Source of the DNA: Nitrospirota bacterium
Lineage (GTDB): Bacteria; Nitrospirota; Thermodesulfovibrionia; Thermodesulfovibrionales; Dissulfurispiraceae
Length of the DNA: 64,000 nucleotides
NCBI GenBank assembly: GCA_963710375.1
Contig: CAVPZX010000003.1
Span: 1-64,000 of the forward strand
Direction of reading: 5' to 3'
Made by a program: the position numbers and the translations under genes. Within the stretch, counting starts at the first letter, position 1; each line of letters begins with the position of its first letter. Under the pieces are notes generated by a model. The model saw nothing but the letters and a program-made list of their open reading frames with translations. It searched no databases and had not been told where the DNA came from. Below, in pieces: positions 5,078-25,604 of the stretch.

Positions 5078-5887
5078 TCAGATGATTTCTGTTGACGCGA
5101 CACGAACATGGTCTGCGGATACGGCCGTACATTTTTCTGCGGCGGCGGCCACCAGTGACCCACGGGCAAGATTGTTGGCTCTCCTGAGCAGTCCGCCTGA
5201 ACCCTGATGTATTGCCGTGACAGCCTGTTCCGAGAACAGATTCTTTTTGCATCCGGCGATATTCTGATGGTGCTGCAAATAGGTAGCCATATCTTCGGCA
5301 TTAAGAGATTCCATATGGCCCCTTGCTACTACACGTGATGCCAGAGGCCTTGATTGGCGGAACATCAGACTGTCCATGAGATTATTCTGTCCGGCAAGCA
5401 CTACTGGCAGCACGGATTTGGAATCTCCTTCGAACTGTACCAATGTATGCAGCTCCGAGAAGACATCAAGGCGTATAAGTGATGCTTCGTCTATGATAAG
5501 CACGGGTTTCTCTTTCTTATCGACGAGTTCCATAATACAGCTTTTTATAATTCTGCTGAGTATAGCTTTTGAGCTGCCTTTCACTTCTATGTTCAGGGCA
5601 TGGCATATCTGCTTATATAGTTCTGCGATGGTTCCTGATGTGGCCGTAACATATAGCACGCGATATTCCGAAGGGTGCAGCGTTGAGGAGGCAAAACGCA
5701 ATGCTGATGATTTACCGCTGCCTACGTCGCCGGTGATGATTGCTATGGCTCCAAGGTTCACAGCATAAAGGAAGCGCTCTTTTACACCAACGAGACCGGC
5801 ATGTTTCATCATGTCTTCTACTCTTATATCCGGCGAGAAGGGTTCTTTTTTGAAACCGAAGAATACTCTGTAGTGTTCCCTGCTCAT
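5078..5887 (-). CDS. ExeA-like AAA ATPase (transposition helper)
   Basis: Walker A GDVGSGKS, Walker B LIIDEA, VLAGQ, SGGLLRRANNL. Confidence 0.92.
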   Translation of the reverse strand: MSREHYRVFFGFKKEPFSPDIRVEDMMKHAGLVGVKERFLYAVNLGAIAIITGDVGSGKSSALRFASSTLHPSEYRVLYVTATSGTIAELYKQICHALNIEVKGSSKAILSRIIKSCIMELVDKKEKPVLIIDEASLIRLDVFSELHTLVQFEGDSKSVLPVVLAGQNNLMDSLMFRQSRPLASRVVARGHMESLNAEDMATYLQHHQNIAGCKKNLFSEQAVTAIHQGSGGLLRRANNLARGSLVAAAAEKCTAVSADHVRVASTEII

Positions 5888-7212
5888 GATTGTCCCTCCT
5901 CTGTATTGTCTTTTCCGAACAGTTTTCCGCCATCGTACCGGCCAGTAGAGTCGTCGCCGATTTCAAAAGTATCCCTGCCCCTGGTGCCTTTGTCCCTTCT
6001 GACACGATAGTTGACGTTTACATCGAGCATGACTGCAAACCCATATGTCTTACCGTCATGGGTAATCTCCATCCGGGCAGGATCATGTTTATGGTACAAG
6101 AGAGTTACCCGTTTGCCGATGAGGCCGACGGGGACCTCATACAAACGGCCCTCTATCGCAACGGTCCTGTCTTTTGCCACTGTTCGTTTTGCCGTTTTCC
6201 TGAAATGGTCTTCGAGGTTTTTAGGGGCCGGTCGTACACACTCTATATTGCGAATGAATCTCTTGAAGGGTTCTTCTTTCGTGATGCTATGGATTTTTTC
6301 ATTGTAAGATTCAATCCATTGCCGGAGTGATTCATTGAGCCCATCCAAAGTCGTTGCTTTCTGGACACTCAGCAGTTGTTCACGCACTGTACGAAAGATG
6401 CGTTCTACTTTGCCGCGACCTTCAGGCTGATAAGGTTTTGAGTGTATAAGCACAATGCCCAAGGAGGCGCAGGTATGTTCAAGATGATGGCTCCTGAAAG
6501 CAGAGCCGTTGTCTACGTATAGTTTCCTTGGGACCCCTCTTTTCAGCAGCGCCTTTCTGAAACAGTCCAGGAAACATTCCAGTTTTTCGTGCAGGTAAAA
6601 CTCCGCGTGCAAGACCAGCCTGCTCATGTCATCCACAAAACACAGCAAGTAGGCCTTGCGTTGTTTATCTTCAACCGTTACAGATGGGCCATGCATGATG
6701 TCAGACTGCCACAGGTCATTTGGGTTTTCTGCCTCGAATCTCCGGCGGTCCTGCGGGTCACCATCACCGGGAACTTTTTGCAAAAGTCCTTCCGCTAATA
6801 ACAAACGATAAAGCGCCGAATATGTTACCTTCATTCCCGGCAATATAATCTTACGGCCATGTGCCTCTTGCAGGAGAGTCGGCAATAAGACCGCCGGCAT
6901 CTCTTTCCTCAACGCAATCAGTCCCTGCGCCGTCTCCGGATCAATCGCACGTGTCTTGCCGCGATCACAACGCTCTTGAGGATATAATGCTTCAAGCTTG
7001 TTGCCTGCAAGTTTGTACCTGGCTATCCATTCCTTGATCGTAGATTCTCCGATCCGTGTCCGCATACTGCCTGGTATTATCCACCGCCGGGCGCACTTCT
7101 CCCGTATCAGGCGCTCCGTCTCTCCCCGTTCCAACTGCCCGCCCCCTACAAAATCAGCAATGACTCCAAATCTGAACACCGCCACCCGCTGCTTCATCTC
7201 TTCCGTCATCAA
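5884..7212 (-). CDS. DDE transposase with N-terminal HTH and Mu-transposase-like C-terminus
   Basis: LWQSDIMH, FVDDMSR, LYVDNGSAF, PEGRGKVERIF, YNEKIHS, RTVAKDRTVAIEGRLYEVP. Confidence 0.95.
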   Translation of the reverse strand: MMTEEMKQRVAVFRFGVIADFVGGGQLERGETERLIREKCARRWIIPGSMRTRIGESTIKEWIARYKLAGNKLEALYPQERCDRGKTRAIDPETAQGLIALRKEMPAVLLPTLLQEAHGRKIILPGMKVTYSALYRLLLAEGLLQKVPGDGDPQDRRRFEAENPNDLWQSDIMHGPSVTVEDKQRKAYLLCFVDDMSRLVLHAEFYLHEKLECFLDCFRKALLKRGVPRKLYVDNGSAFRSHHLEHTCASLGIVLIHSKPYQPEGRGKVERIFRTVREQLLSVQKATTLDGLNESLRQWIESYNEKIHSITKEEPFKRFIRNIECVRPAPKNLEDHFRKTAKRTVAKDRTVAIEGRLYEVPVGLIGKRVTLLYHKHDPARMEITHDGKTYGFAVMLDVNVNYRVRRDKGTRGRDTFEIGDDSTGRYDGGKLFGKDNTEEGQS

Positions 7213-24352: not shown

Positions 24353-24736
24353 ATGAACCAGCTTTCGAAATACACCGACCAGGCTTATGCATTAATGCGC
24401 ATCGTAGCGGGGTTTATGTACTCATTTCATGGAGCCCAAAAAATTCTCGGTTTTCTGAGCGATTTCCAGCCTGCGATAGGTTCCCAACTCTGGTTTGGCG
24501 GGCTTATAGAATTGATTTGTGGTCTGCTGGTGGTGGTGGGTTTCCGGACCCGCTGGGCGGCTTTCCTTGCCAGCGGTGAAATGGCTGTAGCTTATTTCCA
24601 GTTTCACTGGAAGCTCCAACTTGGCCCGAATTTTTTTCCGACCATCAACAAAGGCGAACTGGCGGTCCTATATTGTTTCGTATTTCTATTTATCGCTTGC
24701 CGCGGCGGCGCCATCTGGTGCCTGGATAAGAAATAG
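24353..24736 (+). CDS. DoxX-family membrane protein
   Basis: LMRIVAG...HGAQK...GFRTRWAAFLASGEMAVAY...GELAVLYC. Confidence 0.92.
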   Translation: MNQLSKYTDQAYALMRIVAGFMYSFHGAQKILGFLSDFQPAIGSQLWFGGLIELICGLLVVVGFRTRWAAFLASGEMAVAYFQFHWKLQLGPNFFPTINKGELAVLYCFVFLFIACRGGAIWCLDKK

Positions 24737-24762
24737 GGATTGGTATTGTAAATCCAGAGAGC

Positions 24763-24791
24763 TTGCTTTTTTTATAAAACTTTACTATATT
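24763..24791 (+). promoter_or_regulatory. Putative sigma70 promoter giving a leaderless flagellin-like mRNA
   Basis: TTGCTT-17nt-TATATT, ATG 7 nt downstream, no SD. Confidence 0.5.
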
Positions 24792-24797
24792 TAATTT

Positions 24798-25604
24798 ATG
24801 ATTAATTTGGACAATAACAATCCCGTGCAAAATTCTATAAACAATATTTCAAATCAGCTTTTACAATCGATTAATAACATTTCAAGCGGCAATACGCTTT
24901 ATGATTCATCAGCTAATCCTGCCGACTATACAATATCCGAGAGTTTGCTGACACAACTTAACGGTTCTCAACAAGCAGAAAACAATGTTGAAAATGGAAT
25001 GAATCTGTTAAATACCGCTTTTGGTGGAATGTCGGCGGCCACTAATGCCCTCGAAACTATGAACAACCTTGCGATAGAGGCTGGAAACGGCACCCTGAAC
25101 TCTGCCGATCTGAGTGCTATTAATACAGAATATCAACAGATGAACGCAGAAGTTGGTGGTATAGCACAAAACACCGAATTTAATGGAACTCAACTTCTCA
25201 ATGGAACTACTTCATCAGTAAGCCTGCAGTCCGGCGCCGGTGCGGGTAACCAGACCGGTTCGACAACAGGAAATATTACACCGGAAAATCTTGGACTGGC
25301 TGGAACAAACACCGAAACTCAAGCAAATTCACAGTCAGCCATATCTGCAACCGAGAGCGCTTTAGAAAATGTTTCATCGCAGCAGGCAATCATAGGTGCT
25401 GAACAAAATGGGCTTACATCAACTGTTGCAAATCTTAGTAATAGTGCTCTAAATACTGAGAGTACTCTTTCACAGATAAGTGGCTCAAATATTTCGTCAG
25501 AAGCCTCTAATTTGACGGAAAGTGAAATAAAGCTGCAGACTTCGATTTATGCTTTGTATGCCCAAAATCAACAAAAAGGGCAAATCCTGAGTTTACTCGC
25601 TTAA
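24798..25604 (+). CDS. Flagellin-like protein (minimal D0/D1), Arg-free
   Basis: NISSG, ANPA, NVENGMNLLNTAFGGM, LAIEAGNGTL, NTEFNGTQLL, IGAEQN, ILSLL follow the flagellin N- and C-terminal pattern. Confidence 0.85.
   Translation: MINLDNNNPVQNSINNISNQLLQSINNISSGNTLYDSSANPADYTISESLLTQLNGSQQAENNVENGMNLLNTAFGGMSAATNALETMNNLAIEAGNGTLNSADLSAINTEYQQMNAEVGGIAQNTEFNGTQLLNGTTSSVSLQSGAGAGNQTGSTTGNITPENLGLAGTNTETQANSQSAISATESALENVSSQQAIIGAEQNGLTSTVANLSNSALNTESTLSQISGSNISSEASNLTESEIKLQTSIYALYAQNQQKGQILSLLA

What the first reader, a model, noticed from the sequence alone, without database searches (positions are those of the whole stretch)
24763..25604. Orphan flagellin with no arginine or histidine and only two lysines
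Seen: 268-aa flagellin-like protein with 0 Arg, 0 His, 0 Cys, 0 Trp and 2 Lys. Normally conserved Arg positions are replaced (RLSSG-RIN to NISSGNTL, LQRMRELA to LETMNNLA, RS.LGA.QNR to QAIIGAEQNG, SRI to SQI). The gene is AT-rich, has no flagellar neighbours, no SD, and a sigma70-like rather than sigma28 promoter. Other exported proteins in the window have normal Lys/Arg content. Inference: acquired from an acidophile whose exposed proteins are depleted in basic residues, or a repurposed, possibly trypsin-resistant filament protein.
Basis: partly seen in the sequence, partly recalled or inferred. Interest (0 to 1): 0.7.

Follow-up and report, generated by a model that had tools for sequence, protein, structure and literature searches.

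The report
Arginine-free second flagellin in soil bacterium
A flagellated soil bacterium carries a small extra flagellin gene, far from its flagellar cluster, whose protein has no arginine; it is a native, conserved copy that is likely secreted rather than building the main filament, and it is the extreme case of a loss of basic amino acids seen in all the outer flagellar proteins of its genus.

Summary
Window 24798-25604 encodes an intact 268-aa D0-D1 flagellin with 0 Arg, 0 His and 2 Lys, the lowest basic content of 2290 genome ORFs. The transfer-from-an-acidophile reading is not supported. The genome has a full flagellar cluster on another contig, and its hook, junction, cap and main flagellin are also poor in Arg+Lys (1.3-3.1%, against 5-13% for rod, rings and chaperones). 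The gene belongs to a stand-alone paralogue clade found in 4 of 10 genomes of the genus and is under purifying selection (dN/dS 0.14-0.23). Its sisters in a neighbouring genus have normal Arg/Lys. A TTG-17-TAnnnT-6-ATG promoter is conserved in every Arg-poor copy examined, which points to a sigma70 leaderless transcript and explains the missing SD. Best reading: a FlaC-like accessory flagellin, likely exported through the host's flagellum and not the main filament subunit. Acid adaptation is plausible but unproven: Leptospirillum flagellins keep 12-15 Arg. Verdict: new variant of a known kind, moderate interest.

The parts
24763..24768 (+). Predicted sigma70 -35 hexamer TTGCTT (TTGATT or TTGACA in orthologues)
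   Evidence: Sequence; same position in 5 of 5 aligned copies and in L097, L098 and L099
24786..24791 (+). Predicted -10 hexamer TATATT, 17 nt after the -35 and 6 nt before the ATG, so the inferred transcription start is the A of the start codon (leaderless mRNA)
   Evidence: this geometry occurs in 10 of 2281 genome ORFs against 0-5 at each other offset; not mapped experimentally
24798..25604 (+). 268-aa minimal flagellin paralogue (D0-D1 only), 0 Arg, 0 His, 2 Lys, 21 Asp+Glu
   Evidence: AlphaFold2 mean pLDDT 90.9; Foldseek TM 0.91 to the Roseburia filament flagellin 9hpz
24825..25208 (+). Flagellin_N match (residues 10-137; D0-N and D1-N helices)
25344..25598 (+). Flagellin_C match (residues 183-267; D1-C and a diverged D0-C helix)
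   Evidence: keeps 5 of 11 conserved D0-C columns against 11 of 11 in the host FliC

Best explanation
This is a native, stand-alone second flagellin (D0-D1 only) of a flagellated Nitrospirota soil bacterium, likely made from a leaderless sigma70 transcript and likely exported through the cell's own flagellum as a FlaC-like accessory protein that is released outside rather than forming the main filament. Shown: flagellin family membership, an intact flagellar cluster elsewhere, a separate paralogue clade with Arg-normal sisters, purifying selection, a conserved promoter geometry, and low Arg+Lys in all external flagellar proteins of the genus that were examined. Predicted: the D0-D1 fold. Inferred: leaderless transcription, which would bypass the FliA/FlgM and CsrA/FliW controls on the main fliC; export, argued from composition; a non-structural role, argued from the diverged D0 and patchy presence; and a surface or biofilm-matrix function, by analogy only. 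The Arg loss came after the paralogue arose and parallels the host's other outer proteins. The likeliest cause (about even odds) is keeping net charge near zero in a moderately acidic soil or peat habitat.
For: Host cluster on contig C8 with FlhA, FliS, FliD, FliW, FlgM, a sigma factor, hook, rod and ring genes and a 510-aa FliC. R+K in G000: FlgD 1.3, FlgE 1.7, FliD 1.8, FliC 2.2, FlgK 2.5, FlgL 3.1%, against 5.3-12.8% for rod, rings, FliS and FliW. Neighbouring genus G083: FliC 6.5, FliD 8.7, FlgL 8.1, FlgK 8.3%. Of 19 columns that are basic in other genera, the host FliC keeps 6 and the orphan 0. The orphan clade has 100/99 support, with the Arg-normal P0124 as sister at 100/95. With the g35 paralogues added, the wider clade has 92/94. 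Union with the host-type FliC is rejected, p-AU 3.8e-5. dN/dS is 0.14-0.23 in the 6 pairs with measurable dS, of 15. The promoter is conserved. The main fliC has a sigma28-like site and four GGA motifs in its leader. D0-C columns kept are 5-9 of 11 in orphans and 6-7 in Arg-normal sisters, against 11 of 11 in four genus FliCs. Computed charge at pH 4 is -6 to +6 for six genus flagellins and orphans, against +10 to +24 for ten outside proteins. All five carriers tested for it have fliD.
Against: There are no expression, export or localisation data. The predicted fold matches filament flagellins end to end (TM about 0.9), and minimal D0-D1 flagellins do build filaments. The host FliC has itself lost most conserved basics, so Arg loss alone does not exclude assembly. 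Flagellins named Leptospirillum, an extreme acidophile by established knowledge, keep 12-15 Arg and 7-14 Lys, so acid does not force this change. Run records give soil, peat and freshwater sediment but no pH. A growth-condition study links pH best to extracellular Glu (10.1101/2024.03.22.586313, passages), and Glu is not low here (17 of 268). The wider clade with g35 is not starred (bootstrap 92), and the orphan has odd composition, which can distort trees.
Confidence: 0.45

Rival explanations
1. It is a minor structural flagellin that co-assembles into the filament, for example a smooth hook-proximal segment or an alternative surface against flagellotropic phage.
For: Full-length D0-D1 helices with pLDDT 90.9 and TM 0.91 to a filament flagellin; exact 268-aa length kept in 8 of 8 intact copies; composition shifts in step with the host's axial proteins.
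Against: D0 is more diverged than in genus FliCs. It lacks a sigma28 site. It was not found in 6 of 10 genus genomes, most of them flagellated. Two relatives carry large internal deletions.
Confidence: 0.27
2. It is a cytoplasmic flagellin mimic that binds FliS or FliW and shifts the CsrA/FliW switch, and is not exported.
For: The host has fliW, fliS and a csrA-like ORF. A leaderless sigma70 gene would be outside that feedback loop.
Against: Its composition groups with external proteins: only 14 of 1392 ORFs without a hydrophobic segment have R+K under 5%, and these include the flagellar axial proteins. C. jejuni FlaC does not bind FliW and is secreted (PMC5466977, passages).
Confidence: 0.1
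3. The basic-residue loss is driven by something other than acid: saving energy or nitrogen on proteins lost outside the cell, or avoiding sticking to humic matter and clay, or avoiding trypsin-like proteases. This can hold together with either role above.
For: Mean synthesis cost 18.1-18.6 against 19.0-19.8 in Arg-normal sisters, and 1.23-1.26 against 1.31-1.34 N per residue (cost values recalled from the literature). Leptospirillum keeps its basics.
Against: Asn and Gln, each with two N, make up 64 of 268 residues, so nitrogen saving is small. The shift is genus-specific while all flagella are costly. A relative about 90% identical lies in a peat metagenome.
Confidence: 0.35
4. It was acquired horizontally from an unrelated acidophile, or is a decaying relic.
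For: GC3 0.33; patchy presence; different neighbours in each lineage; a 962-nt promoter-plus-gene unit duplicated in G007; two deleted copies.
Against: The closest relatives found in genomes are in the same genus and family. Orthologue GC3 matches that of neighbours. dN/dS is 0.14-0.23. The host's own proteins show the same depletion.
Confidence: 0.06

Closest known systems
FlaC of Campylobacter jejuni and other Campylobacterales (PMC4863622 and PMC5466977, passages read)
   Same: A short flagellin with D0-D1 but little or no D2-D3, in a cell whose motility flagellin has large outer domains; a second, separate gene.
   Different: Free-living soil Nitrospirota host with no animal host known; complete loss of Arg; conserved leaderless sigma70 promoter. 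Secretion and dispensability for motility are shown for FlaC and only inferred here. Descent from FlaC was not tested.
Flagellin-homologous proteins FlaE/FlaF of Vibrio (PMC6692518, abstract and Discussion read)
   Same: Flagellin paralogues with changed contact residues, proposed here as the model for an extracellular non-filament role.
   Different: flaE shares an operon with flaD, while this gene stands alone. EPS binding is untested here.
Minimal D0-D1 filament flagellins (Roseburia 9hpz, Shewanella FlaA/B 9oxj/9oxk, Kurthia 6t17)
   Same: Same length and predicted fold, TM 0.88-0.91.
   Different: About 28-30% identity; 0 of 11 conserved basic columns and 42 of 69 other conserved columns kept (reference minimum 56); not the cell's main flagellin.
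FlgL (hook-associated protein 3)
   Same: Shares the Flagellin_N domain.
   Different: TIGR02550 score 60.4, under the 127.2 cut-off; the host has its own flgL beside flgK.

Membership tests
Bacterial flagellin family | Flagellin_N and Flagellin_C domains over Pfam cut-offs | tested here: met
Bacterial flagellin family | D0-D1 helical fold | tested here: met
   Predicted model, pLDDT 90.9; TM 0.91 to 9hpz
Canonical motility flagellin (FliC/Hag) | Conserved Arg/Lys columns in D0-D1 | tested here: not met
   0 of 11 and 0 of 19; the host FliC keeps 4 of 11 and 6 of 19
Canonical motility flagellin (FliC/Hag) | Conserved C-terminal D0 | tested here: not met
   5 of 11 columns against 11 of 11 in four genus FliCs
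Canonical motility flagellin (FliC/Hag) | Sigma28 promoter and place in the flagellar regulon | tested here: not met
   A sigma28-like site precedes the C8 fliC, none near this gene; neighbours are non-flagellar
Canonical motility flagellin (FliC/Hag) | Score over an NCBIfam flagellin cut-off | tested here: not met
   Best 134.5 against cut-off 332; none of 25 families passes
Canonical motility flagellin (FliC/Hag) | Polymerises into the filament | not testable with these tools
   Needs filament proteomics or in vitro assembly
FlaC-type non-structural flagellin | D0-D1 without D2-D3, alongside a longer structural flagellin | tested here: met
   268 aa against the 510-aa host FliC
FlaC-type non-structural flagellin | Secreted through the flagellum and dispensable for motility | not testable with these tools
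   Inferred from composition and co-occurrence only
FlaC-type non-structural flagellin | Common descent with Campylobacterales FlaC | not tested
   No FlaC sequence was in the trees
Vibrio flagellin-homologous proteins | Binds exopolysaccharide and strengthens biofilm | not testable with these tools
   Needs binding and biofilm assays
FlgL (HAP3) | TIGR02550 cut-off and flgK-flgL synteny | tested here: not met

The most novel reading that the evidence does not exclude
This lineage has rebuilt the flagellin assembly interface without any of the near-universal arginines. The orphan, on a movable promoter-plus-gene cassette outside the flagellar checkpoints, would self-assemble as an arginine-free, pH-switched filament or matrix fibre that is near neutral at pH 3-4 and strongly negative at pH 7.
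Probability: 0.17. Interest if true: 0.72.

Novelty: new variant of a known kind. Interest (0 to 1): 0.43.

Why it matters
It gives a natural experiment on which conserved flagellin arginines are needed. One family holds Arg-normal sisters (18 Arg), a partly purged main flagellin (9 Arg) and a fully purged paralogue (0 Arg) with the same predicted fold. It extends FlaC-like accessory flagellins to free-living soil Nitrospirota. The sharp split between depleted external and normal internal flagellar parts may be a usable sequence marker of habitat. In practice such proteins give almost no tryptic peptides and would be missed in standard soil metaproteomics.

Tried and rejected
Complex prediction of host FliS with residues 170-268 of the orphan gave no verdict (score 0.04, mark 0.32); it is not used as evidence. 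The sequencing-run search listed no RNA holder, so expression and transcription start could not be checked. The promoter scanner did not list the 24763 site (8 of 12 matches) and found no terminator; the promoter rests on conservation. Three look-ups of earlier findings returned nothing. Eight paper searches listed no description of this paralogue or of Arg-free flagellins; most subscription journals are not in that library, and no supplements were read. A recent duplicate of the host fliC with D2-D3 deleted was rejected (p-AU 3.8e-5). Recent foreign origin inferred from AT-richness was rejected. An assembly artefact or pseudogene was rejected: independent contigs L097 and L098 and run X10 carry the gene beside doxX, and the frame is under purifying selection. 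Cluster look-ups gave no organism names for P0124, P0276 or most low-Arg flagellins.

Full report
Observation. The gene is window 24798-25604 (+), 268 aa, with no Arg, His, Cys or Trp and two Lys. It passes Pfam Flagellin_N and Flagellin_C but none of 25 NCBIfam families reaches its cut-off. AlphaFold2 on a 102-row alignment gives a D0-D1 flagellin with mean pLDDT 90.9, and the best Foldseek match is a filament flagellin at TM 0.91. It has the lowest R+K+H fraction of 2290 crude ORFs of 150 aa or more. Only the Arg loss is unusual: of the 117 non-clade hits listed, none lacks Arg, while 107 lack Cys, 101 Trp and 75 His. Among 439 flagellin-like proteins of 240 aa or more fetched outside the clade, one other has no Arg (P0389).

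Host. The genome (98.8% complete) has three Flagellin_N matches: this gene, a 510-aa FliC and FlgL. Contig C8 carries a full cluster with FlhA, FliS, FliD, FliW, FlgM, FlgK, FlgD, hook, rod and ring genes. The close full-length matches in genome contigs are three loci in records titled Nitrospirae or Nitrospirota bacterium (L030-L032). Runs holding most of the stretch are soil metagenomes of two studies, one run possibly the source. A relative about 90% identical lies in a peat metagenome and fragments lie in freshwater sediment. No pH is given.

The depletion is the host's own. In G000, R+K is 1.3-3.1% in the seven external axial proteins (FlgD, two hook-type proteins, FlgK, FlgL, FliC, FliD) and 5.3-12.8% in nine rod, ring and cytoplasmic ones. 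G007 shows the same (FlgL 3.5, FlgK 3.4%; FliD 7 of 507), whereas G083 of a neighbouring genus has 6.5-8.7%. Seven FliCs from six genomes of the genus have 7-10 Arg; 15 from other genera have 13-26. Of 19 columns basic in at least 60% of 13 outside FliCs, the host FliC keeps 6 and the orphan none. Proteins with a predicted signal segment mostly have normal content (median 12-13%; 17 of 285 under 5%; crude classifier), which is why the window's exported proteins looked normal.

Family. Among 10 genomes of the genus, the paralogue is intact in G000, G009 and G007 (two copies) and internally deleted in G002; it was not found in six, some of them incomplete. Intact copies are all 268 aa with 0-4 Arg. 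Neighbours differ by lineage; G009's copy lies about 7 kb from fliD, the others away from the cluster. A profile search of 1.84 billion representatives added P0122, the deleted P0123 and then P0124, which has 11 Arg and 13 Lys. Searching 390 genomes of the class with P0124 found stand-alone sisters with 18 Arg in G083 and G082, 2 of 3 genomes of genus g35. A search of 401 phylum genomes added no closer member. In a 60-row tree (near-identical, deleted and truncated rows and FlgL left out; bootstrap not fully settled) the orphans form a 100/99 clade with P0124 as sister at 100/95. In a 34-row tree they group with the g35 paralogues, P0124's group and P0276 at 92/94, which is short of starred. 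Forcing them together with the host-type FliC is rejected (p-AU 3.8e-5). dN/dS is 0.14-0.23 in the six pairs with measurable dS; eight of 15 pairs are saturated and one has no synonymous change. GC3 of 0.34 is limited to the G000 subclade; other orthologues have 0.55-0.62, like their neighbours in G007 and G009. So the paralogue is old in this family, and the Arg purge came later, in step with the host's other outer proteins (inference from the tree; unrooted).

Regulation. All five aligned copies, plus L097-L099, have TTGnnn-17 nt-TAnnnT-6 nt-ATG while the rest of the upstream DNA differs between lineages. In G000 this geometry occurs in 10 of 2281 ORFs against 0-5 at other offsets, and only 1 of 75 genes with TAnnnT at that offset has an SD-like motif against 765 of 2281 overall. 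This is the pattern of leaderless genes (established knowledge), and it explains the missing SD. The g35 sisters keep TTGATT-17-TACCCT but have a short leader with an SD-like run. The main fliC has a sigma28-like site about 180 nt upstream and four GGA motifs in its leader (consensus motifs recalled). A leaderless sigma70 gene would escape both FliA/FlgM and CsrA/FliW control (inference).

Role. Of 80 columns conserved in 69 reference flagellins, the orphan keeps 42 and the host FliC 52. In the C-terminal D0, which forms the filament core and carries the main FliS contact (PMC6070490, passages), four genus FliCs keep 11 of 11, orphans 5-9 and Arg-normal sisters 6-7. The D0 divergence therefore predates the Arg loss. 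Together with patchy presence and separate control, this fits a FlaC-like accessory flagellin. FlaC lacks most of D2-D3, is secreted and is not needed for motility (PMC4863622 and PMC5466977, passages; review PMC8306008, passages). Vibrio paralogues are excreted through the flagellum and bind biofilm polysaccharide (PMC6692518, abstract and Discussion). Export is inferred from composition and from all five tested carriers having fliD. A minor filament subunit remains a serious rival, because the fold is complete and the host FliC tolerates much of the same loss.

Cause. Computed net charge at pH 4 is -6 to +6 for six genus proteins and +10 to +24 for ten outside ones, as expected if positive charge is shed where carboxylates become protonated. 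Against this, four flagellins named Leptospirillum keep 12-15 Arg and 7-14 Lys, and a growth-prediction preprint ties pH best to extracellular Glu (10.1101/2024.03.22.586313, passages), which is not low here. Cost saving and avoidance of adsorption to soil colloids stay open. I give acid about even odds.

Verdict. The feature is real and more than chance. It is a flagellin-family member that fails the tests for a canonical motility flagellin and probably works like FlaC, without shown descent from it. Eight literature searches listed no account of it, within the limits of that library. New variant of a known kind; interest 0.43.

Noticed in passing
L024:7534-8481 and L025:7639-8600 (G007:C4): A 962-nt unit holding only the promoter and the paralogue occurs twice, 97.8% identical, about 464 kb apart; the two genes differ at two non-synonymous and no synonymous sites. 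The gene moves as a self-contained cassette.
   Followed up: partly
G000 genome-wide: Leaderless-type promoters are enriched: 19 ORFs with TTG(16-18)TAnnnT six bases before ATG, against 1-6 at most other offsets and 10-12 at adjacent ones.
   Followed up: partly
P0169, P0181, P0203, P0389: A separate clade of short flagellins has lost Arg independently (0-3 Arg; P0389 has none). It is sister to Arg-normal P0005, named from Nitrosomonadales. Hosts unknown.
   Followed up: partly
G000:C6:149951-150760 (-) and G000:C3:292934-293632 (-): Two similar proteins without an obvious signal peptide, rich in Ser/Thr/Gln, with R0 K0 H6 and R4 K1 H6; candidates for further flagellum-exported substrates.
   Followed up: no
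L027:7735-8268 (G002) and P0123: Two relatives carry different in-frame internal deletions (177 and 170 aa) that remove much of D1 but keep both ends; G002 also keeps the promoter.
   Followed up: partly
G006:C17:25711-26121: The main fliC of G006 is interrupted by a TAA stop within the match; phase variation or an assembly error.
   Followed up: no
G000:C8:238773-266543: A long run of sugar-synthesis and radical SAM genes lies next to the main fliC, probably for flagellin glycosylation (labels read from sequence, not HMM-tested).
   Followed up: no
window 24736-24739: A peat-metagenome relative (run X10) has 726 extra bases between doxX and the promoter, so promoter and gene stay together apart from doxX.
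   Followed up: partly
window 5078-7209 (-): A gene pair that looks like an integrase/transposase and an ATPase (labels recalled, not tested).
   Followed up: no
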